A stretch of DNA of 64,000 nt, taken from the sequence record PZ445489.1; one strand, 5' to 3'. Position 1 is the stretch's first letter. Every line of letters starts with the position of its first letter. Shown piece by piece: positions 7,809-60,287 of the stretch. The position numbers and the translations under genes are program-made. The notes under the pieces are model-generated. The model saw only the letters and a list, made by a program, of their open reading frames with translations. It was not told the origin of the DNA and did not search any database. This DNA comes from a phage.

Positions 7809-10139
7809 ATGAGCCATCGCATTGAAAAAGTAATTAAACGTGACGGTACTGTAGAAGACTTTGCTCCTGAAAAACTCAATGGTTGGGCAGAGTATGGTTG
7901 CAAAACAGTTGATGTAAGTTGGTCAGCCATTACTATGGCTGCTCAAAAAACTCTACCTAAAGGGGTTGTAGATTCCGACACTCTGATGGACGCATTAATT
8001 AAAGCTGCTGAAAGTCTTATCAAAGATAATCCAGCATACGATGTGCCAGCAAAGGAATTACGTCTTGCGCAAATGCGTAAACGCCTTTATGATTCTTTCG
8101 AACCACCCTCTCTACGCTTCTTCCATGACCATATGGTTAGCGTAGGTGCATGGGAAGACATGAGTGCATGGATTACCGATGAGCAATTTGAAGCTCTGAA
8201 TCAGGTTATAGACCACGATCGTGACCGTCTTTTTACTAGTGGTGGACTGAAGCAGTTCTTTGATAAGTATTCCCGTCGTAACATAGCCACTGGTGAAATT
8301 TACGAAACCCCGCAGTTTGCCTACATGGGTATGGCAATGGCGATGTTATCTCAACCTAACTGGACAATTCTAGATGCAATCGACCTCTACAACGCAATGT
8401 CACTCCACAAAATCAACGTTCCTACGCCGCCACTGGTTGGTCTGCGCTCTAGTGACCGTGGATTTGCTAGTTGCTGCCTCGTGGATTCCACTGACACGTT
8501 GGATTCAATCGACACCGCCGAGCACATCGTCTTCAAAATGGTCGCAGCCAGAGCGGGAATCGGGTATCATCTTGAAAGCCGATCAATTGCTGATCCGGTG
8601 CGAAATGGGGCATTCCCACATTCCGGAAAACTGCCATATTATCGACACATTGACCGCTCAGTAAAGGCCAATACTCAGCAAACTCGTGGTGGTTCTGCCA
8701 CAGTGTCTTATCCATACTTCGACCCTGAAATCATTCAATTGATGCAGGTTAAGCAACAACGTGCTACAGATGAGAATAAAATCGATAAGATGGATTATTC
8801 TCTGAGCTTTAACAATCTTTTGTTAAAACGTTATCTTAAAAACGAGGATATTACGCTAATGTCATACTTCTATGCTCCAGAAGTTCATGAAGCGTTTTAT
8901 AGTGATGACGAGGCTAAATTTGAAGAAATCTACGTGGCAGCGGAGAAACGTGTGGCATCTCTTACAAAGATCGACCACGAAGGAAAAACAGTTCCTGCAG
9001 CTCCTAAAGTCTCTGCAAAAGAAATCCTAGATACTTGGCTACGTATCCGAATGGAAACAGGACGTATGTATGCTCATCACATCGGGGAATCTAATCGTCA
9101 CGGTAACTTCCTTGATCCAATCCGTATGACAAACCTTTGTGTTGAAATTACTCAGCCTACGCGCCCGTTCCATCATATCACAGAACTGTATAAGACAAAA
9201 GAGCAGCTTGATCAAATGAAGCCGGAGGATATTGGTGAAGTATCTCTGTGTAACTTAGGTGGTGTTGTACTGGGGCGCATGGAATCTCTGGCTGAGTGGG
9301 AAAAAACTTGCTACATCCTCCTGAAATTCGTTGATACAATTATTGAAATTCAGGATTATCCGTTCCCAACTATGGAATATACGGCTAAGAAACGTCGTAA
9401 TGTTGGTATTGGCCTAATGAACGCAGCAGGTGCAATGGCAGCAGAAGGTCTGGCTTATGAAGGTATTGAAGCCCGTAACTGGATTCACCGTGAGGCTGAA
9501 AAACTGTCCTACTTCCTGCATAAAGCCTCTGTACGCCTAGCTAAAGAACAGGGTGCATGTGAGTGGTTTGATCGTACTAAACCATCTAAAGGAATTCTGG
9601 TAATCGACACGTACAAGAAAACTGTTGATGAACTGGTATCCGTAGGTCTAGAAATGGATTGGGAGTCTCTGCGTGCAGATATTCTGAAATACGGTATGCG
9701 TAACTCTGTTCTGACTGCTCAGATGCCAGGAGAAAGTTCTTCTGTTCTGTTAGGTGTTACTAATTCTATTGAACCGCCTCGTAAGATTGTATCTATCAAG
9801 GGTAGTGCAGTGAATAAAGTAATTGCAATTGCTCCGGGTGCAACCGATTGGGAAACGTTAATGAGCTATAAACTGGCTTATGATGTAGATCGTATCGAGT
9901 GGATCAAATGGGTAGCAACTATGCAGAAATTCTTCAGTCAGTCTATCAGTACGAATATGTACTATGACTACACCAAGTTTGAGAATGAAATCATTCCTGG
10001 TCCAGTAGTAGTTCGTGATTTCATGACTGCTGTTAAGTATGGGTGGAAGACTTTCTACTACGCAAACTTCAACACCGCTAATGGTGGTGGTGCAGGGGAA
10101 GAATCCGCAGGCTGCGCTTCTGGTGGTTGTACCATCTAA
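7809..10139 (+). CDS. nrdA: ribonucleoside-diphosphate reductase alpha subunit (class Ia)
   Basis: ATP-cone HRIEKVIKRDGT, NLCVEI active-site region, C-terminal CASGGC; start chosen at ATG 7809 after promoter and RBS. Confidence 0.9.
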   Translation: MSHRIEKVIKRDGTVEDFAPEKLNGWAEYGCKTVDVSWSAITMAAQKTLPKGVVDSDTLMDALIKAAESLIKDNPAYDVPAKELRLAQMRKRLYDSFEPPSLRFFHDHMVSVGAWEDMSAWITDEQFEALNQVIDHDRDRLFTSGGLKQFFDKYSRRNIATGEIYETPQFAYMGMAMAMLSQPNWTILDAIDLYNAMSLHKINVPTPPLVGLRSSDRGFASCCLVDSTDTLDSIDTAEHIVFKMVAARAGIGYHLESRSIADPVRNGAFPHSGKLPYYRHIDRSVKANTQQTRGGSATVSYPYFDPEIIQLMQVKQQRATDENKIDKMDYSLSFNNLLLKRYLKNEDITLMSYFYAPEVHEAFYSDDEAKFEEIYVAAEKRVASLTKIDHEGKTVPAAPKVSAKEILDTWLRIRMETGRMYAHHIGESNRHGNFLDPIRMTNLCVEITQPTRPFHHITELYKTKEQLDQMKPEDIGEVSLCNLGGVVLGRMESLAEWEKTCYILLKFVDTIIEIQDYPFPTMEYTAKKRRNVGIGLMNAAGAMAAEGLAYEGIEARNWIHREAEKLSYFLHKASVRLAKEQGACEWFDRTKPSKGILVIDTYKKTVDELVSVGLEMDWESLRADILKYGMRNSVLTAQMPGESSSVLLGVTNSIEPPRKIVSIKGSAVNKVIAIAPGATDWETLMSYKLAYDVDRIEWIKWVATMQKFFSQSISTNMYYDYTKFENEIIPGPVVVRDFMTAVKYGWKTFYYANFNTANGGGAGEESAGCASGGCTI

Positions 10140-10198
10140 TATTAACAAGGGGACATACGTCCCCTTTATTAGACCTTCTATGGCTGTAATTTTAAATT

Positions 10199-10681
10199 AT
10201 GGAAGAAAAATACAAAGAAATAGTGGGGTTATTTGATTATAATCCAGAAACAGGGATATTTACCCATAAAGCTAGAGAAGATAAATCCTTCAATACTAGA
10301 TTTGCTGGCAAAGAAGCTGGTTCTCTAGAAAAATGCTCTGGATATATTGTAATGCAAGTAAAAGGCACTAAGTATTACGCGCATATCCTAGCATTCCTTA
10401 TCGTTAATGGGTATATTCCAAAGGAAGTAGATCACGATAATAGAATACGGCACGATAACCGAGCTATTAATTTAAAGGCCTCTGACAGACACAGTAATGG
10501 TAAAAATGTCGGGGCGCACAAAGATAATAAATTAGGTATTAAAAATATTCACCAAAAAGCGAGTGGATCTTACCAGGTACAGATAGCCCGTAAAGGTGTA
10601 AAATATACTAAAACATTCAAAGAACTTGAGGATGCTATAGAGTGGCGCGATATGAAACTATTGGAGCTTGATAGTTTATAA
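10199..10681 (+). CDS. HNH homing endonuclease
   Basis: HNH-like VDHDNRIRHDNRAINL plus C-terminal AP2-like DNA-binding region; sits between nrdA and nrdB. Confidence 0.7.
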   Translation: MEEKYKEIVGLFDYNPETGIFTHKAREDKSFNTRFAGKEAGSLEKCSGYIVMQVKGTKYYAHILAFLIVNGYIPKEVDHDNRIRHDNRAINLKASDRHSNGKNVGAHKDNKLGIKNIHQKASGSYQVQIARKGVKYTKTFKELEDAIEWRDMKLLELDSL

Positions 10682-47850: not shown

Positions 47851-48035
47851 TGGAAACTCTTTTTCTTTTAATGCTCGTAGGTTCCCTGCTAGTTATACTA
47901 GCACTTCTACTAATCTGTAATATTCTTAATAATAAGAATTTAGAGTTAAAGTGTGAGAACCAAATCCTTAACCGTGAACTTAAACAATATAACCTAGCAG
48001 CTCATAAGCTGTTAGACAAACTGGAGAATAAATAA
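47850..48035 (+). CDS. membrane-anchored protein (61 aa)
   Basis: N-terminal TM segment; ATGG overlap. Confidence 0.45.
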   Translation: METLFLLMLVGSLLVILALLLICNILNNKNLELKCENQILNRELKQYNLAAHKLLDKLENK

Positions 48036-48655
48036 TGACTTTATATGCACAACAATCTATTCAAGTAGTACCAGAGCATGAACTGAATACATGGGATTAT
48101 AGCTTTAAAGATTTAACTGCTACTGTACAATTCAAATCTATGAAGCTAACCTTTGCACACACTAGTATTAAAGCATGTAAAGATCTTGAAGGTAAGCTCG
48201 AAGATGCTCGCAAGATTTTTGGTACGGCTCGCATCCCGGCGGATAACCTGATTAATGCACTGATCGATGCAGGGTACAAACTTGTGAAGACTGAGGTGAA
48301 CCGCCCCAGTACTCCAGTGACTATTAGAGATCCGTGGCAGTCAGGGACAATCTCAATGCTGAATAACTCCGATAAAAGATTAATGTCGGATATGCACAAT
48401 GTTCCTTGTGGGGGTGTGGTAAGTAGTACGAAGTCATATAAGTTTGGGGAAGATTACGGCCCTTCTGTACAGTTGAAACATACCCAAGAAGCTTTTGAAT
48501 CTGATATGCGAAGCGTAGCACCTGTGGATGCTGGAGTTTCTAGGAGTTCTGTTTGTACTATTCATTTTAATAATCCTAGTAAACATGGAAGTCTAGAAGA
48601 TGCAATTATGGAAGCACTGGGAGCTGTTATTAATGAAGATAAGAGGGGTAATTAA
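48035..48655 (+). CDS. hypothetical protein (206 aa)
   Basis: ORF. Confidence 0.5.
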   Translation: MTLYAQQSIQVVPEHELNTWDYSFKDLTATVQFKSMKLTFAHTSIKACKDLEGKLEDARKIFGTARIPADNLINALIDAGYKLVKTEVNRPSTPVTIRDPWQSGTISMLNNSDKRLMSDMHNVPCGGVVSSTKSYKFGEDYGPSVQLKHTQEAFESDMRSVAPVDAGVSRSSVCTIHFNNPSKHGSLEDAIMEALGAVINEDKRGN

Positions 48656-49386
48656 TGAAAGATTTGGCAGTAAAATTTAAGAATATTCTAGCCCTCGCTA
48701 AGGGGGCTGATCATCGCTGTTTCTCTGATCTAACTGCTCAAGAGAAACATGCAGTAATGTTTGTTTGTGAGATGTTCCCAGCTAGGTGGGAAGGTGGTAA
48801 GATTAAGTATGATAACAAAGCTGCAAAAGCTGACCTTGCTTACTCTTATGTTGATATGAATAAACTTCTCAAGTCTTTAGATCCAACTGCTAAAGGTCAC
48901 ATGGGAAACTATATTCATGTTATTATTGATGAACCTCTCCCAGCGTATAGAGAAACATCCGCTAGAGAAGCGTTAGAAGCGTATCCTGAGCAACTTCTTA
49001 TCCCACCTAAGAAATGTAAGTTCGATCATCTTCCAGCATTAGCTTTTGAAACTAGCATTACGTTTGAAGATATTTATAGAACGATTGGAGCTGTAGTAGC
49101 ACGGATTGCAGTGGCACATCATCGTGATATAGAACTAACTACAGCGGAAGATTACATTCTATATGCTATCCACGATGAAAAGGACTCCTTCAAACGTTTA
49201 ATGGATGCGCTAGGATTAGGTAGTCTCACTGCACTTGTGCTTAACCAGGCTCCTAGAACTAAGCGTTATGCAAAAGGATCTATTACTCTTGAAGAAACAG
49301 GATCTACATCTTCATTCCTTGCTACGTATATTTATCTAGCATCTAAAGGAATCTATCTAAAGGCTAGAAAGAATGTCACTATATAA
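48655..49386 (+). CDS. hypothetical protein (243 aa)
   Basis: ORF. Confidence 0.5.
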   Translation: MKDLAVKFKNILALAKGADHRCFSDLTAQEKHAVMFVCEMFPARWEGGKIKYDNKAAKADLAYSYVDMNKLLKSLDPTAKGHMGNYIHVIIDEPLPAYRETSAREALEAYPEQLLIPPKKCKFDHLPALAFETSITFEDIYRTIGAVVARIAVAHHRDIELTTAEDYILYAIHDEKDSFKRLMDALGLGSLTALVLNQAPRTKRYAKGSITLEETGSTSSFLATYIYLASKGIYLKARKNVTI

Positions 49387-49729
49387 AGTATATATTCTTG
49401 CAAATAGGGATCTGACGAAGATCCCTAAGAGAACAAAGATCGGTATTAGTATGAATCCACATAATAGGATTCAAACACTAAACTTAGATAAGATAGTTTA
49501 TCGTGGTTTTGACGATTTATACGTGTATGGGATCTATGAAACCCATAATCCTAGAGATCTAGAAGCCGCTGCACATATCTACTTTAAGAAATACCGCTGT
49601 AATTTAAAGGGATTCGAAGGATGCACAGAGTTCTTTGATATTCACCCACAACTTGCAGAACGATTCCTATTAAATACAGGAGCCAAGAAGATTTACGACC
49701 CCAATATCAATCTCGAAGGAGATGTATAA
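49373..49729 (+). CDS. GIY-YIG-like nuclease domain protein (118 aa)
   Basis: YKVYIL...KIGISMNPHNRIQTL resembles the GIY-(N10)-YIG-..R..N pattern; weak. Confidence 0.4.
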   Translation: MSLYKVYILANRDLTKIPKRTKIGISMNPHNRIQTLNLDKIVYRGFDDLYVYGIYETHNPRDLEAAAHIYFKKYRCNLKGFEGCTEFFDIHPQLAERFLLNTGAKKIYDPNINLEGDV

Positions 49730-49734
49730 ACGTT

Positions 49735-49790
49735 AACAAAATCTTCTTGACAACTCATTGCGGAACATGTTATAATAATCTCATAGATTA
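49735..49790 (+). promoter_or_regulatory. near-consensus sigma70 promoter with no downstream ORF
   Basis: TTGACA 49747-49752, 18-nt spacer, TATAAT 49771-49776. Confidence 0.5.
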
Positions 49791-49815
49791 AAAACAACTC
49801 TTGTTTTGAACTCTA

Positions 49816-49911
49816 GGGGCGATGATTATTACACTTAGTATTACGTCTATACGTTGCGACAGCACGAGTATAGATCTAATTACTAAGTCTTCCGTAATAC
49901 TCACGCGCCCC
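49816..49911. repeat. imperfect nested palindrome (about 95 bp)
   Basis: ggggcg..gtattacg..ctatac..gtatag..cgtaatac..cgcccc. Confidence 0.5.
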
Positions 49912-50224
49912 ACGAGGAATCTCACATGAAATGGGGGTATATTTACTTTTAAATAACTAAAAATATTTAAAGGCAATATCTGTGTTCAAGATGATACACC
50001 TGTTGCCGCTCATCTGCTAGGATGGCACAACACTTTCTAGTAGACTCCTAAGTTTCTAGGAATAGTTGAGCACTAACTCTAGAGTTTACATTAAACTTTA
50101 AATCTGTTTCTCTAGCCAACTCAGGCGGTTTTCATTGTTCCTAGAAACTCTAGCAATAGGCGGTTATAGGGAGGGCGGTTATTTCTAGAAGACATTTTTT
50201 GAAAACACATTTCCAGAAATTACT

Positions 50225-50825
50225 GTCGGATTTGCACACTGCATTTCTAGAAATTTATGGTCGGATTTGCACAAACGCCTAAGTTTTTAGGGACACATAA
50301 TCTCCTGAAAATAGCAGCATTATTTCGGGCCGAAGGCCCATGATTGCCTGAGTTTTTAGAGCCACAGAAATTTTCACTTGTCAAGCTATTTTGCCCCGTT
50401 TAGCTAATAAAATTTTACTTTTTCTGCACCTATCTCAAATTAACCCAAATTATCTCACATCTTCCCCAAAATCCCCGCAAATCAGGTGCTCCGCACCAAA
50501 CATGCGCCCCATCCTTCTAGCCTCCCAAATTTCTCTCACTCTCTCATCTTCTCCTCAAACCCACACAATCACACACCCTCCAATCGAAGTCACAAAAATC
50601 TTGTCGGATTCGCACAAATAAACCCATGTCGGATTTGCACATATTCTAGCTAATTCCACAGGATTGATGCGCAGCATCGGATTGCTGGAGTTTTTGGGAA
50701 AATTCATTGTCGGATTTGCACACTATAAAAATTTTTCGGGTCGGATTTGCACACTACCAAAAATTGTCGGATTCGCACATACATGCCCGCACGTAACACC
50801 CGTGGAGCAATGTCGGATTTGCACA
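50225..50825 (+). repeat. eight direct copies of 14-bp box GTCGGATT(T/C)GCACA
   Basis: Copies at 50225, 50260, 50603, 50628, 50709, 50740, 50766, 50812, all same orientation. Confidence 0.8.
50510..50585 (+). other. G-free C/T/A tract on + strand (about 75 nt)
   Basis: cctcccaaatttctctcactctctcatcttctcctcaaacccacacaatcacacaccctc has no G. Confidence 0.7.
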
Positions 50826-50871
50826 AAAGCGCAGGGCAATTGCCCTGCTAGCCTGAATGCGAATGATAATA

Positions 50872-51000
50872 AGAATCATTATCATTTAAAAAGCGAAATG
50901 AGAACTATTCAAAAAGTGAAATGATTCTCATTTAGGAAAGGAAATGATTATCGGTTAGAAAGTGAAATGCGAATGAGAATAATTCTCATTTAAGAATGGA
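50872..51000. promoter_or_regulatory. cluster of palindromic AATGAGAAT-N-ATTCTCATT-type operator-like boxes
   Basis: Palindromes at 50872-50896, 50928-50943, 50982-51000 plus GAAATGA half-site repeats. Confidence 0.55.
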
Positions 51001-51023
51001 AGTGAGAAACACTGTTATTTAAG

Positions 51024-51105
51024 TTATCCACAGACTTATTAACAGCACGATTTGACTTGACAGAATCCTAGCCATTTTGAGGCGTTATTAACAGACTTAT
51101 CCACA
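51024..51105 (+). promoter_or_regulatory. two DnaA-box-like TTATCCACA sites
   Basis: TTATCCACA at 51024-51032 and 51097-51105. Confidence 0.5.
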
Positions 51106-51129
51106 GCTTATCCTACTGTATAAATATAC
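51094..51129. repeat. 36-bp inverted repeat, left copy (partner 54637-54672)
   Basis: gacttatccacagcttatcctactgtataaatatac; 34 of 36 match reverse complement of right copy. Confidence 0.7.
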
Positions 51130-51327
51130 AGTATTCCTACGTAGTGAATAATTCTAATATACCGCTAAAACGTCCTAGATCGCATTCTAACGCGTTTAAT
51201 TTTGGTGGGGATACTAAAACAAGGGCAAAATTGGAGGAGGCTTAAAAATTAGTTAGCCCGCTAACGATCACACAAGTCGACACGTAACACCCTAATCATT
51301 AGCAGGCTAACCATCGCGGGCGCGCTC

Positions 51328-51348
51328 AAATGAGAATGATTCTCATTT
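51328..51348. promoter_or_regulatory. palindromic operator-like box AAATGAGAATGATTCTCATTT
   Basis: 10-bp arms, same family as the 50.9-kb boxes; just beyond 3' end of leftward operon. Confidence 0.5.
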
Positions 51349-51389
51349 GAGAATTGGGGGCACTCCCTGGTAGTTGCGCCCCGTTATTA

Positions 51390-51584
51390 TTAATCCGGTA
51401 ATTGATGCGTGATCTTCTCCTCTTCCCCATAGGAATCGACCAAATGCTGATAATAACCATCGGCATCATAAATAACGCTATCATATTCCCCCCGCTCGAC
51501 CGCTTGCCGGTTTTCCGGCGTATCGGGCACGTAAAAAACATCAACCATTGTACTGATTTTGGTTACAACAATTTTATTGCTCAT
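51390..51584 (-). CDS. hypothetical pre-early protein (64 aa)
   Basis: ORF, last gene of leftward operon; ATGA overlap with upstream gene. Confidence 0.45.
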   Translation of the reverse strand: MSNKIVVTKISTMVDVFYVPDTPENRQAVERGEYDSVIYDADGYYQHLVDSYGEEEKITHQLPD

Positions 51585-56300: not shown

Positions 56301-56708
56301 ATGACTAACGTTAAAACCGCAAAATTCTCATGGAATGAAGAAAACACCCAAAAAGCTGTTACCATGTACCAGCAGTTAATTAATGAAAACGGTTTAGATT
56401 TCGCAAATAGCGACGGCCTGAAAGAGATTGCAAAAGCAGTTGGCGCGGCCTCCCCCGTGTCCGTTCGCTCAAAATTGACCAGCGCGAAAGCGTATCAGAA
56501 AAGCGATAAGCCGCGCAAAGTTGGCGGCGGTAGCTCAATCCGCAAAGCGCATTATGTGCGCGTTATTGCAAAACACGCTATCGATTCCGGCATTATCAAA
56601 GACGCCGACGATCTGGCATCACTGGAAAGCGCAAAACTGGAAACGCTGGACGCCGTGGCGCAACTGTTAGGCGTTGCCGATGAAGTGAAACAAGCCGCAG
56701 GCGAATAA
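56301..56708 (+). CDS. A2: pre-early protein, A2-like by size and position
   Basis: 135 aa, AGGAG RBS, directly upstream of A1-like gene; assignment by synteny and size only. Confidence 0.4.
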   Translation: MTNVKTAKFSWNEENTQKAVTMYQQLINENGLDFANSDGLKEIAKAVGAASPVSVRSKLTSAKAYQKSDKPRKVGGGSSIRKAHYVRVIAKHAIDSGIIKDADDLASLESAKLETLDAVAQLLGVADEVKQAAGE

Positions 56709-57060: not shown

Positions 57061-58725
57061 ATGATTATTTCCGCAGAAAAACAAACCGTTATCCTGAAAA
57101 TGGCCGCTGACTTTAATTTCTACGGTAAACGTCTGCGCGCTACTAAACTGGAGGTCTGCGACGATATATCAAAAGCGGTTTACGATACTCCAAAACATTC
57201 CACCGCTATTTGTGATTGGCTGGAAGCAAATAAACCAGCGAAACCGAAAGCGGCGAAAGTAGCAAAAGCCATTAAAAACGATGAGCGCCCAGAAGCGGCG
57301 GGGATTGTTTCTAGCACGGTGGAAAGCTGGGAAGTAAAACAAGGCAAACGCTTTATTATTACATCGATTCAGAATAATACGTTCCCGCATAAAAACTTTT
57401 TAGCCTCACTGGAGCAATTTGCTAAATATATCGGCGCTGATTTGCTGGTTAGCAAGTATATTTATAATAAAAACGGATTCCAAAATGGCGAGGGCGCGGA
57501 TGGAATAAAATATGATTCCGCGTTCGATAAATATATTTGCAGCAAAAACGTGTTTTTGAATAATCGCCGTTTTGCTTTCATGGCTGAAATTAATGTTTTG
57601 CCCACCGCAGATTATCCGCTTTCTGGATTCGCTGAAACTGCAACCGCGCTTAATCTGGAAGGTCTGGCAATTGGTCACGCTAAAATCACCGCCGAAAGCG
57701 TGCCAGCTTTAAAAGGTGAAGTAGTGCGCCGCATGTATTCAACTGGCACGGCAACGCTTAAAAATTACATCCAGCAGAAAGCAGGACAGAAAGCGGAAGC
57801 ACTGCATAACTTCGGTGCGCTGATTGTTGAGTTCGACGAAGACGGTGAGTTTTTTGTTCGCCAGCTTGAAACAATGGACGAAAGCGGGGTGTTTTATGAT
57901 CTGAATGTTTGCGCTACTCCCGCCGGATGCTATGAAACATCGGGGCATGTTTTAGGCTTACAATACGGCGATATTCACGCAGAAAAATTAGATGAAGAGT
58001 GCGCCGCCGCGTCATGGGCTGGCGAAAATAGCTTGCTTGATATTCTTAAACCAAAATATCAGTTTATCCATGACGTTCACGACTTTACATCACGCAACCA
58101 TCACAACCGCGCTTCGGGTGTATTCCTAGCAAAACAATACGCCGCCGGACGTGATAAAGTTCTGGATGATCTTATCGATACCGGTCGCGTGCTGGAATCA
58201 ATGGAACGTGATTTCTCGCAAACAATCATTGTTGAATCTAATCACGATCTGGCGCTATCCCGTTGGCTGGATGATCGTAATGCTAACATTAAAGACGACC
58301 CCGCAAACGCGGAACTATATCACCGCCTTAATGCCGCGATTTATGGCGCTATTGCAGAAAAAGACGATACTTTCAACGTGCTAGATTATGCGCTGCGTAA
58401 GGTTGCAGGTTGCGAGTTTAACGCCATTTTCCTAACGACTGACCAATCATTTAAAATTGCAGGCATTGAATGCGGCGTACACGGTCACAATGGCATAAAC
58501 GGCAGCCGTGGCAATCCGAAACAGTTTAAGAAATTGGGCAAATTAAACACGGGGCACACTCATACCGCCAGCATTTACGGCGGGGTATATACCGCTGGCG
58601 TGGCTGGTAGTCTGGACATGGGTTACAACGTTGGCGCGTCAAGCTGGACACAAACGCATTTAATTACCTATGCAAATGGTCAGCGTACTTTGATCGACTT
58701 TAAGAACGGTAAATTTTTTGCGTAA
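57061..58725 (+). CDS. A1: pre-early protein A1-like with calcineurin-like phosphoesterase motifs
   Basis: 554 aa; GDIHAE, ESNHD and GHTHTAS resemble Mre11/SbcD-type metallophosphoesterase motifs; size matches T5 A1 as I recall it. Confidence 0.55.
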   Translation: MIISAEKQTVILKMAADFNFYGKRLRATKLEVCDDISKAVYDTPKHSTAICDWLEANKPAKPKAAKVAKAIKNDERPEAAGIVSSTVESWEVKQGKRFIITSIQNNTFPHKNFLASLEQFAKYIGADLLVSKYIYNKNGFQNGEGADGIKYDSAFDKYICSKNVFLNNRRFAFMAEINVLPTADYPLSGFAETATALNLEGLAIGHAKITAESVPALKGEVVRRMYSTGTATLKNYIQQKAGQKAEALHNFGALIVEFDEDGEFFVRQLETMDESGVFYDLNVCATPAGCYETSGHVLGLQYGDIHAEKLDEECAAASWAGENSLLDILKPKYQFIHDVHDFTSRNHHNRASGVFLAKQYAAGRDKVLDDLIDTGRVLESMERDFSQTIIVESNHDLALSRWLDDRNANIKDDPANAELYHRLNAAIYGAIAEKDDTFNVLDYALRKVAGCEFNAIFLTTDQSFKIAGIECGVHGHNGINGSRGNPKQFKKLGKLNTGHTHTASIYGGVYTAGVAGSLDMGYNVGASSWTQTHLITYANGQRTLIDFKNGKFFA

Positions 58726-59552: not shown

Positions 59553-60287
59553 ATGAATCAAGTTAAAACGAATATTACCCGTAATTTCCCGCATATTTCC
59601 CGCGTCATGATTTGGGATCTGGACGGAACTATCATTAATTCTTTCCATCGCGTAGCGCCTTGCTTTGATAGCGAGGGCAATTTAGATTTAAATAAGTATA
59701 AAAATGAAGCATGTAAACATGATTTAATAATGCAAGATACACTATTGCCGCTTGTTACATATATGCGCCAGTGCATGAATGATGTTAGTACGTTAAACAT
59801 TATTTGCACCGCTCGACTGATGAGCAAGTCGGACTATTATTATTTGCGCAAACAAGGATTGCGAGGGCGTGGGGATAGTAATATCCGTGTATTTTCCCGC
59901 GATACACTACACAAATATTTTGAGGCTGATAAAGTTAGCGAGATATACCACAGCAAAGACGCTATTTATAAAAGCCATTACTTTGAGTTATTTAAACAAT
60001 TATATCCGAACGCTGATTTCACGATGATTGATGATCATAAAGGCGTGCTATCAGCGGCGGCGTCATACGGATTTAAAACGCTGGACGCGCAAGCCGTTAA
60101 CGATATTCTATCGATTGGGGTTACATTGATAGGTGAAACCTTTATCGATGAATCTCTTGAGGATGATAATGATTATCAGTTCCTAGCCGACCGCCTGCAA
60201 TTATGTTGGGAAGGTATGACCGAAGAAGAACGCGCAGAATATAGTTGCAGCCCGCAACAATATATTGAGAAATTAAAAGTTGCGTAA
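59553..60287 (+). CDS. dmp: HAD-family 5'-deoxyribonucleotidase-like protein (Dmp-like)
   Basis: 244 aa; HAD motif I IWDLDGTIIN; size and position match T5 dmp as I recall it. Confidence 0.55.
   Translation: MNQVKTNITRNFPHISRVMIWDLDGTIINSFHRVAPCFDSEGNLDLNKYKNEACKHDLIMQDTLLPLVTYMRQCMNDVSTLNIICTARLMSKSDYYYLRKQGLRGRGDSNIRVFSRDTLHKYFEADKVSEIYHSKDAIYKSHYFELFKQLYPNADFTMIDDHKGVLSAAASYGFKTLDAQAVNDILSIGVTLIGETFIDESLEDDNDYQFLADRLQLCWEGMTEEERAEYSCSPQQYIEKLKVA

What the first reader, a model, noticed from the sequence alone, without database searches (positions are those of the whole stretch)
50225..50825. Eight iteron-like 14-bp direct repeats GTCGGATT(T/C)GCACA
Eight same-orientation copies in two groups of 2 and 6 within 600 bp of ORF-free DNA at the inner edge of the pre-early region. 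This is where the T5 injection-stop locus is reported to carry repeats, as I recall. They look like protein-binding iterons, for a phage protein such as A2 or a host protein.
Basis: partly seen in the sequence, partly recalled or inferred. Interest (0 to 1): 0.6.

Follow-up and report, generated by a model that had tools for sequence, protein, structure and literature searches.

The report
T5-type DRD repeats, function unknown
The eight 14-bp repeats are real and under strong selection, but they are the already catalogued "direct repeat D" elements of the phage T5 injection-stop / terminal-repeat-boundary region, and what binds them and what they do is still unknown.

Summary
There are eight exact, same-strand copies of GTCGGATTYGCACA at the stated coordinates, against about 0.45 loose matches expected by chance. 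The window is a T5-like (Tequintavirus) genome read in reverse orientation.

The repeats coincide one for one with "direct repeat D" (DRD) copies 1-8, annotated in T5 GenBank record AY587007 since 2005. Davison lists them as "nine DRD repeats" of Repeat Region 3, the injection-stop (iss) region, and gives them no role. The feature is therefore already known.

What I could add:
- Motif positions change 3-8 times more slowly than the spacers.
- The two groups flank the right boundary of the terminal repeat in 8 of 8 genomes with resolved ends.
- The innermost copy lies 3 nt from the 7.9 % nick site.
- All 12 copies in a whole genome are co-oriented.
- Homologous arrays occur across Demerecviridae with lineage-specific variants, while true DnaA boxes nearby stay unchanged.

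This favours a co-evolving, phage-encoded binding protein over DnaA. A2, a predicted helix-turn-helix protein, is a plausible but unproven candidate. Packaging-signal and replication-origin readings are not excluded.

The parts
50225..50238 (+). DRD copy (equivalent to T5 DRD 8), outside the terminal repeat
   Evidence: Exact match. Same position and spacing as the annotated T5 'direct repeat D copy 8'.
50260..50273 (+). DRD copy (equivalent to T5 DRD 7), outside the terminal repeat
   Evidence: Exact match. About 86 bp from the inferred TR boundary, as in T5.
50359..50359 (.). Inferred right (inner) boundary of the terminal repeat. The TR runs from here to about 60397.
   Evidence: Homology with the T5 NC_005859 TR end at 10219|10220. 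The boundary falls between the two DRD groups in 8 of 8 TR-resolved genomes. It was not determined for this window itself.
50400..50590 (+). C-rich, G-poor spacer between the two DRD groups
   Evidence: GC skew reaches -0.75. A similar C-rich spacer separates the groups in the Aeromonas phage, and a similar C/A-rich, G-poor stretch occurs in the Proteus phage.
50603..50616 (+). DRD copy (equivalent to T5 DRD 6), C variant, inside the terminal repeat
   Evidence: Exact match. About 244 bp from the inferred TR end, as in T5 and several other genomes.
50628..50641 (+). DRD copy (equivalent to T5 DRD 5)
50709..50722 (+). DRD copy (equivalent to T5 DRD 4)
50740..50753 (+). DRD copy (equivalent to T5 DRD 3)
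50766..50779 (+). DRD copy (equivalent to T5 DRD 2), C variant
50812..50825 (+). DRD copy (equivalent to T5 DRD 1), innermost, next to the nick site
50829..50836 (+). GCGCAGGG, homologue of the T5 major nick 1 (7.9 %) site. The nick is expected between 50828 and 50829 on the + strand.
   Evidence: T5 annotations. The nick-site sequence R^GCGCAGGG is shared by T5 nicks 1-3. DRD followed by GCGCAGG is retained in Klebsiella, Vibrio, Aeromonas and Proteus phages, and as GCGCAGAGG in locus L223.
50831..50848 (.). Palindrome J (GCAGGGCAATTGCCCTGC). It is terminator-like on the - strand.
50860..51010 (.). Palindromic AATGAGAATnATTCTCATT-type repeats (T5 DRC/DRE, palindromes E-I)
   Evidence: Repeat families D2, D4 and D5 and inverted repeats I3 and I8. 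T5 annotation.
51024..51105 (+). Two pairs of DnaA / DnaA-like boxes, each pair separated by 3 bp: TTATCCACA 51024-51032 with TTATTAACA 51036-51044, and TTATTAACA 51085-51093 with TTATCCACA 51097-51105
   Evidence: Read directly from the sequence. Matches Davison's description of IRD'/IRC'.
48385..48398 (+). Outlying DRD copy (one mismatch) inside ORF 48035-48655, same orientation
   Evidence: The homologous copy is exact in phiR201 and several IMG/VR genomes and present in Kenya-K45.
56301..56708 (+). A2 gene (pre-early DNA-binding protein), candidate binder only
   Evidence: 98 % identical to T5 A2. PHROG 1725 'DNA binding protein'. AlphaFold2 model with mean pLDDT 84 and an HTH at residues 38-61. 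No binding evidence.

Best explanation
These are the DRD elements of the T5-type 'Repeat Region 3'. They form a co-oriented array of about 14-bp sites (consensus RTCGGATTYGCACA, preceded by a short A-tract) lying on both sides of the inner boundary of the terminal repeat. The innermost copy sits 3 nt from the 7.9 % nick.

The most likely reading is that they are recognition sites for a sequence-specific, phage-encoded DNA-binding protein. That protein would load on the DNA segment lying at the cell envelope or tail when first-step transfer pauses. My preferred candidate is the pre-early HTH protein A2, which together with A1 is required for second-step transfer. Binding to successive co-oriented sites would mark or grip this segment and help transfer resume. 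The DRDs would not themselves be the stop.

Shown here: the repeats, their selection, their orientation, their family-wide distribution with lineage-specific variants, and their position relative to the TR end and the nick.
Inferred: that a protein binds them, that it is phage-encoded, that it is A2, and the role in restarting transfer.
For: - Identity with the annotated T5 DRD copies.
- Purifying selection. Motif positions differ from the window at 5.7 % against 16.1 % for spacers. For T5 the figures are 1.8 % and 11.2 %, for Stitch 2.7 % and 22.5 %, for phiR201 7.1 % and 32.8 %.
- The motif is retained in the same orientation and in two groups in Myunavirus, Sugarlandvirus and another genus, where spacers cannot be aligned.
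- Homologous arrays carry lineage-specific variants: Vibrio phage Chester T[CA]G[GA]ATTTGCACC, Vibrio phage 70E34-3 TWGRWTTYGCACAT, Aeromonas phage AhSzw-1 TCGRAWWWSTACT, and an environmental relative TCGGWTTYGCACT. Genuine TTATCCACA DnaA boxes next to them stay unchanged. That pattern is what co-evolution with a phage-encoded partner would produce.
- No ORF, no promoter pattern tied to the copies and no Rfam family explains them.
- The locus is where T5 transfer pauses. SST needs A1 and A2, and A2 is annotated as a DNA-binding protein.
- The A2 model shows a confident N-terminal HTH (helices 38-47 and 52-61).
- The residue in the conserved VR-x-KL of the putative recognition helix is S (or G) in the lineages sampled that keep a GCAC-type array. 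It is Q in the Aeromonas phage, whose motif ends in TAC. It is T in the two lineages that have lost all copies except the one by the nick.
Against: - There is no binding or genetic evidence of any kind. The covariation rests on about three independent changes and is confounded by phylogeny.
- Foldseek gives no significant structural relative for A2 (best E = 0.64).
- If the DRD segment sits inside the tail tube during the pause, a cytoplasmic protein could not reach it.
- Lineages with a degenerate array (Proteus phage 2, L223) keep A1 and A2, so the array is not indispensable in its T5 form.
- The copies in the D13 gene and in the gene 1.8 kb away are not explained by a role at the pause site.
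- The conserved position of the TR end between the two groups is not predicted by this model.
Confidence: 0.4

Rival explanations
1. Packaging signal. The two DRD groups would be binding sites for the small terminase subunit (or another packaging factor) on either side of the site where the concatemer is cut to make the right genome end. This is analogous to pacL/pacR of SPP1 or cosB of lambda.
For: The TR right boundary falls in the spacer between the groups in 8 of 8 TR-resolved DRD-bearing genomes from three genera or subfamilies. It is typically 244-246 bp from the nearest inner copy and about 86 bp from the nearest outer copy. The sites are co-oriented, asymmetric and repeated, as for terminase sites (resemblance recalled from established knowledge of SPP1 and lambda). 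If the left end leaves the capsid first, the right end would be packaged first, which would place the start site here (inference).
Against: In Vibrio phage Chester all eight copies lie outside the TR as deposited, on one side of the end. The L223/L224 lineage has a TR end in the same region but no DRD array. No DRD lies near the other TR boundary. Extra copies inside genes would be hazardous cut sites. TR ends in some records may have been set by homology rather than measured.
Confidence: 0.2
2. Replication-origin iterons. DRDs together with the adjacent DnaA boxes and AT-rich palindromic repeats would form an iteron-type origin. A phage initiator would bind it, for example the UL9-like helicase D2. 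The DRD pair in D13 would be a secondary site.
For: The architecture is co-oriented repeats in groups of 6, 2 and 1 plus paired DnaA boxes plus AT-rich palindromes. T5 D2 is related to herpesvirus origin-binding helicases and has been proposed as an initiator. The C variant of the DRD shares the 7-mer TTCGCAC with the HSV UL9 box as I recall it (memory, not tested). Multiple origins were reported by electron microscopy (cited).
Against: Spacing is irregular (25-81 bp) and the unit is short. No Rep-like gene lies alongside: neighbours have no Pfam match or are homing-endonuclease-like. The D2 match to the UL9 family covers only profile positions 51-197 of 820, which is not the part of UL9 that I recall (from memory) as its C-terminal DNA-binding domain. 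Published mapping puts origins near the genome centre.
Confidence: 0.1
3. Host-factor sites. DRDs would be weak DnaA boxes (or sites for another host protein) that extend Davison's proposed DnaA-mediated tethering of the iss region to the membrane.
For: The 3' nine bases ATTTGCACA match TTWTNCACA at 8 of 9 positions. By my own hand calculation (not a tool result) the a-posteriori chance of such a match somewhere in a 14-mer is about 0.01. Genuine DnaA boxes lie 200-300 bp away. The stop needs no new protein synthesis (recalled from the classical T5 literature, not from a paper read here), which would favour a pre-existing factor.
Against: The invariant 5' half GTCGG is not explained by DnaA. 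In the Aeromonas phage the equivalent repeats end in TACT while a perfect TTATCCACA is kept nearby. Two Vibrio phages carry different variants. Spacing is unlike the oriC low-affinity arrays.
Confidence: 0.08
4. Nick-related element. DRDs would guide or hold the enzyme or end at the 7.9 % single-strand interruption.
For: The copy next to GCGCAGG is the most deeply conserved unit. It is the only copy left in Proteus phage 2 and L223. All copies lie on the nicked strand, and the nick is 3 nt 3' of DRD 1. The D13 pair lies about 370 bp from nick 4.
Against: T5 nicks 2 and 3 have the same GCGCAGGG site with no DRD nearby. Seven of the eight copies have no GCGC beside them. From memory, nick-deficient T5 mutants are viable.
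Confidence: 0.1
5. No present function: remnants of an old duplication carried along in a conserved block.
For: Within Markadamsvirinae the whole region, spacings included, is inherited as a block.
Against: Motif positions evolve 3-8 times more slowly than spacers. The motif persists where spacers and spacings are completely different.
Confidence: 0.02

Closest known systems
T5 'direct repeat D' (DRD) of Repeat Region 3 / iss region (GenBank AY587007; Davison 2020, bioRxiv 10.1101/866236)
   Same: Same sequence, orientation and order, and near-identical spacing. Same neighbours: palindrome J, nick 1, DRC/DRE repeats and DnaA-box inverted repeats.
   Different: The window has eight array copies instead of nine, because copy 9 has decayed. 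It also has an extra homing-endonuclease-like gene next to the region.
Plasmid and phage replication iterons (RK2 oriV, P1 oriR, pSC101)
   Same: Co-oriented direct repeats in separate groups, next to DnaA boxes and AT-rich DNA.
   Different: The unit is about 14 bp rather than 17-22 bp. Spacing is irregular. No initiator gene lies alongside. No origin activity is known here.
Terminase recognition sites flanking a cut site (SPP1 pacL/pacR, lambda cosB R sites)
   Same: Repeated asymmetric sites on both sides of a genome-end cut site.
   Different: The position relative to the end is not kept in Vibrio phage Chester. The array is absent in a lineage that still has a TR end here. Terminase binding is untested.
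Low-affinity DnaA boxes of oriC
   Same: 8 of 9 match to TTWTNCACA, co-oriented, close to strong DnaA boxes.
   Different: An invariant extra 5' half. Lineage-specific variants lose the CACA. Spacing is tens of bp instead of 2 bp.
Short repeat arrays next to the terminal repeats of T7-like phages (recalled from memory, not tested)
   Same: Arrays of short direct repeats at the inner edges of a direct terminal repeat.
   Different: Unrelated sequence and phage family. Their role is also not established.

Membership tests
T5 DRD repeats (Repeat Region 3) | Sequence identical to the annotated 'direct repeat D' copies | tested here: met
   Pattern matches in AY587007 coincide with the features 'direct repeat D copy 1-9'. 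The window has the same 14-mer.
T5 DRD repeats (Repeat Region 3) | [quoted passage not shown] | tested here: met
   Window-to-T5 homology map, T5 annotation, boundary analysis.
T5 DRD repeats (Repeat Region 3) | Copy 1 abuts palindrome J and the 7.9 % nick site | tested here: met
   GTCGGATTTGCACA-AAA-GCGCAGGGCAATTGCCCTGC at 50812-50848. T5 features.
Injection stop signal (iss) | Lies within the region annotated or mapped as iss | tested here: met
   NC_005859 iss 9140-10149 covers DRD 1-6. DRD 7-9 lie outside it.
Injection stop signal (iss) | Cis-acting ability to halt DNA transfer | not testable with these tools
   None of the papers read here reports a functional dissection. In 2026 the mechanism is still described as poorly understood.
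Replication iterons | Regularly spaced 17-22 bp co-oriented repeats | tested here: not met
   A 14-bp core with spacings of 25-81 bp and 343 bp and no phasing.
Replication iterons | Cognate initiator gene adjacent | tested here: not met
   Flanking ORFs give no Pfam match, or belong to PHROGs of unknown function, or are homing-endonuclease-like.
Replication iterons | DnaA boxes and AT-rich DNA alongside | tested here: met
   Paired TTATCCACA/TTATTAACA boxes at 51024-51105 and AT-rich palindromic repeats at 50860-51010.
Replication iterons | Origin activity | not testable with these tools
   Published mapping places origins near the genome centre (cited).
DnaA boxes | Match to TTWTNCACA that is kept across relatives | tested here: not met
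   8 of 9 in this window, but Aeromonas phage equivalents end in TACT while a true box nearby is kept.
Terminase pac/cos recognition sites | Sites flank the genome-end cut site | tested here: inconclusive
   True in 8 of 8 DRD-bearing TR-resolved genomes. Not true in Chester as deposited. The cut site persists without the array in L223/L224.
Terminase pac/cos recognition sites | Bound by the small terminase subunit | not testable with these tools
   No data.
HSV UL9-type origin boxes | Phage protein with a UL9-type DNA-binding domain | tested here: not met
   The D2 homologue matches Pfam Herpes_ori_bp only at profile positions 51-197 of 820.

The most novel reading that the evidence does not exclude
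The DRDs would be a family-wide, co-evolving set of co-oriented recognition sites for a phage-encoded protein (A2 is the best guess). That protein would act on the DNA segment at the first-step / second-step transfer boundary. The outlying copies, one in the neighbouring gene and a pair in D13, would belong to the same system. If so, the 50-year-old question of how T5 restarts (or stops) DNA transfer would gain a defined cis element and a testable protein-DNA pair.
Probability: 0.3. Interest if true: 0.7.

Novelty: already known. Interest (0 to 1): 0.33.

Why it matters
T5's two-step DNA transfer has had no molecular explanation since the 1960s, and 2026 papers still call the mechanism poorly understood. 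The DRDs are the most strongly selected short elements in the non-coding region where transfer pauses and where the terminal repeat ends, yet the literature I could read gives them no role.

Showing which protein binds them would decide between three basic processes: transfer restart, genome-end formation, and replication initiation. The comparative pattern found here gives concrete, cheap experiments. As a discovery, however, the repeats themselves are not new.

Tried and rejected
- Promoter or terminator function: the scan found nothing tied to the copies, only the palindrome J hairpin beside copy 1.
- Structured RNA: no Rfam match at E <= 1.
- Coding: only short ORFs, and T5 annotates none here.
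- General nick-site element: T5 nicks 2 and 3 lack DRDs.
- DnaA sites: rejected on the Aeromonas variant.
- UL9-like recognition by D2: the Pfam match does not reach the part of the profile that I recall as the UL9 DNA-binding domain.
- Shared cut-site sequence at the two TR boundaries: no convincing similarity by eye.
- A2 relatives of known structure: none by sequence and none significant by fold.
- Exact-motif literature search: no paper prints the 14-mer.
- Davison 2015 and Bourguignon 1976 could not be read.
- The search for related loci with the A2 alignment failed because no conserved stretch was long enough. The A1 alignment was used instead.
- A de novo k-mer search script timed out and was replaced by the repeat finder.

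Full report
**Observation.** The eight copies are present exactly as described. GTCGGATTYGCACA occurs on the + strand at 50225 and 50260, and at 50603, 50628, 50709, 50740, 50766 and 50812. Allowing two mismatches, the 64-kb window holds 10 matches. The expectation is 0.45, and none of 100 dinucleotide-preserving shuffles reached 10. The surrounding 1.6 kb (49730-51325) lies between convergent gene blocks and has only short ORFs.

**Where the window comes from.** The region is 95 % identical to phage NBEco001 and 86-91 % identical to many Tequintavirus genomes, on their minus strand. Mapping to T5 shows the following layout:
- early genes up to about 49730;
- the non-coding region;
- the pre-early genes, with A2 at 56301-56708, A1 at 57061-58725 and dmp at 59553-60287;
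- after about 60400, the llp and oad genes of the far end of the genome.

The assembly therefore has the terminal repeat (TR) collapsed, as at a concatemer junction.

**Identity of the repeats.** T5 record AY587007 annotates 'direct repeat D copy 1' to 'copy 9' at 9672-10409. My pattern search hits exactly those nine features. The same record places 'major single-stranded nick 1, 7.9 %' and palindrome J immediately beside copy 1, and it ends the left TR at 10139, between copies 6 and 7. NC_005859 labels 9140-10149 'injection stop signal (iss)'. Davison's 2020 preprint lists 'nine DRD repeats' among the elements of Repeat Region 3 and says the region is conserved in T5-like phages. He attributes the stop to the DnaA-box inverted repeats and DRE repeats and gives the DRDs no function. 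Papers from 2026 still call the mechanism poorly understood. The feature is therefore known and annotated, and its function is not known.

**Anatomy in the window.**
- By homology with T5, the TR boundary is at 50358|50359, which is 86 bp from the outer pair and 244 bp from the inner six.
- Between the groups lies a C-rich, G-poor stretch with GC skew down to -0.75.
- The innermost copy is followed by AAA and then GCGCAGGG. This is the sequence at which T5 is nicked, and it is shared by T5 nicks 1-3.
- Next come palindrome J, AT-rich palindromic repeats, and two pairs of DnaA or DnaA-like boxes.
- Each DRD is preceded by an A-tract at positions -7 to -5 and a T at position 0.
- Spacings are not helically phased.
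- No promoter pattern accompanies the copies, and there is no Rfam match.

**Selection.** Relative to the window, motif positions differ at 5.7 % and spacers at 16.1 %, pooled over 21 non-identical relatives that are not phylogenetically independent. For T5 the figures are 1.8 % against 11.2 %, for Stitch 2.7 % against 22.5 %, and for phiR201 7.1 % against 32.8 %. Much of the motif variation is the T/C at position 9. In Pectobacterium phage My1, in Klebsiella Sugarlandvirus and in a further genus, the spacers and spacings are entirely different. The motif, its orientation and the two-group layout persist all the same.

**Deep conservation with lineage-specific variants.** Homologous arrays occur in the same place in distant Demerecviridae:

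| Phage | Motif | Copies |
|---|---|---|
| Vibrio phage Chester (A1 33 % identical) | T[CA]G[GA]ATTTGCACC | 8 |
| Vibrio phage 70E34-3 | TWGRWTTYGCACAT | 6 |
| Aeromonas phage AhSzw-1 | TCGRAWWWSTACT | 4 + 4, around a C-rich spacer |
| Environmental relative (L254) | TCGGWTTYGCACT | 6 |

- In Chester, the Aeromonas phage, the Klebsiella phage and Proteus phage 2, the copy nearest the pre-early genes is followed by GCGCAGG. In L223 the following sequence is GCGCAGAGG, and in 70E34-3 the element is diverged.
- In L254 it is an earlier copy that is followed by GCGCAGG.
- In Proteus phage 2 and in L223, only the copy beside the nick-like site remains recognisable.
- True TTATCCACA boxes persist unchanged beside these arrays, including in the Aeromonas phage, whose repeats no longer resemble a DnaA box.
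- This argues against DnaA and for a partner that evolves with the phage.

**Genome-wide distribution.** A complete Tequintavirus genome (Kenya-K45, 108 kb) has exactly 12 sites at up to one mismatch, all on one strand. Nine are in the array, one is in the gene 1.8 kb away (the equivalent of window 48385), and two form a tandem pair in the D13/exo2 gene. AY587007 annotates the D13 pair as DRD copies 11 and 12. The pair is present in all 28 Markadamsvirinae examined. Vibrio relatives carry two similar sequences, GTCGGWTTTGNGCT, nearby. For the one I checked (locus L170), the reading frame differs from T5's, which hints at selection on the DNA rather than the protein.

**Relation to the genome end.** In eight TR-resolved genomes from Markadamsvirinae, Myunavirus and Sugarlandvirus, the TR right end lies in the spacer between the two groups. 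Several contigs end 243-245 bp from the nearest inner copy. In Chester as deposited, the whole array lies just outside the TR. The array-less lineage L223/L224 still has a TR end in the equivalent region. The array therefore tracks the inner edge of the left TR, and it does not seem to be indispensable for end formation.

**Candidate binder.**
- A2 is annotated as a DNA-binding protein and is required with A1 for second-step transfer.
- It has no match in the local Pfam copy and no relative in the PDB by sequence.
- An AlphaFold2 model (mean pLDDT 84) shows an N-terminal helical domain with an HTH (helices 38-47 and 52-61), a basic disordered linker, and a helical C-terminal domain.
- Foldseek finds only insignificant HTH-like similarities.
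- In the conserved VR-x-KL of the putative recognition helix, x is S (or G) in the sampled lineages with GCAC-type arrays. It is Q in the Aeromonas phage with its TAC-type array. It is T in the two lineages with degenerate arrays.
- This is a hint from about three events, not a test.

**Verdict.** 'Iteron' in the replication sense is not supported, and a host factor is less likely than a phage protein.

My best explanation is a binding-site array for a phage-encoded protein, possibly A2, acting at the boundary between first-step and second-step DNA. I give it a probability of 0.4. The packaging-signal reading (0.2) and the origin, nick-related and host-factor readings (about 0.1 each) remain open.

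Noticed in passing
window 48385-48398: A one-mismatch DRD copy (GTCGGATATGCACA), in the same orientation, sits inside ORF 48035-48655 (PHROG 5271, unknown function). The homologous copy is exact or near-exact in many relatives about 1.8 kb from the array.
   Followed up: partly
L137 1320-1349 (T5 AY587007 79019-79048); L141-L172: A tandem DRD pair (GTCGGATTTGCACC TGTAGGATTTGCACA, 15 bp apart) lies in the coiled-coil part of the D13/exo2 gene, about 370 bp from major nick 4. It is kept in 28 of 28 Markadamsvirinae. Vibrio relatives have two GTCGGWTTTGNGCT sequences nearby; in L170 the one checked is in a different reading frame.
   Followed up: partly
window 49747-49776 (+): A perfect sigma-70 consensus promoter (TTGACA, 18 nt, TG-TATAAT) points into the non-coding region. 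It lies just after ORF 49373-49729, which is homing-endonuclease-like (T5orf172/MUG113). This segment has no homologue at this position in T5.
   Followed up: no
window 50400-50590: A strongly C-rich, G-poor stretch on the + strand (GC skew down to -0.75) lies between the two DRD groups, just inside the inferred TR end. A comparable C-rich spacer is present in the Aeromonas phage, and a similar stretch occurs in the Proteus phage.
   Followed up: partly
L132 6514-6673; L133 3104-3271; L254 4217-4304; L223 3816-3891: Vibrio, Aeromonas and environmental relatives carry about 7-14 tandem 8-bp units (TCTAGACT / TCTATCCA type) between the nick-like site and the AATGCGAATGA repeats. In Chester the deposited TR end falls inside this tract. 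The window has no such tract.
   Followed up: no
L011 4951-5138: Proteus phage 2, whose DRD array is degenerate, has a different array of at least 7 direct repeats (CCATTCTATTAYTC type, 15-18 bp apart) on the outer side of the region. This may be a replacement array.
   Followed up: no
window 50829-50836 and T5 loci L135, L136, L137: T5 major nicks 1-3 share the sequence R^GCGCAGGG on the nicked strand (nick 4 has GCGCGGGC). The DRD-plus-GCGCAGG unit is the most deeply conserved part of the region.
   Followed up: partly
window 50359 to about 60397: The window is a collapsed-terminal-repeat assembly. Early genes, one TR copy and then llp/oad from the other genome end are contiguous, so the two TR boundaries can be read as at a concatemer junction. 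T5 records AY587007 and NC_005859 disagree by 80 bp on the left terminus.
   Followed up: partly
window 49800-51400 (GenBank relatives): Many GenBank records annotate one to seven 'hypothetical proteins' across this non-coding repeat region. T5 reference records annotate none, so these are probably spurious gene calls.
   Followed up: no
window 56301-56708: The precomputed annotation gives A2 homologues a Pfam family (PF26822), whereas the local Pfam copy returned no match. The model has an HTH N-domain, a basic linker (KSDKPRKVGGGSS) and a helical C-domain.
   Followed up: partly
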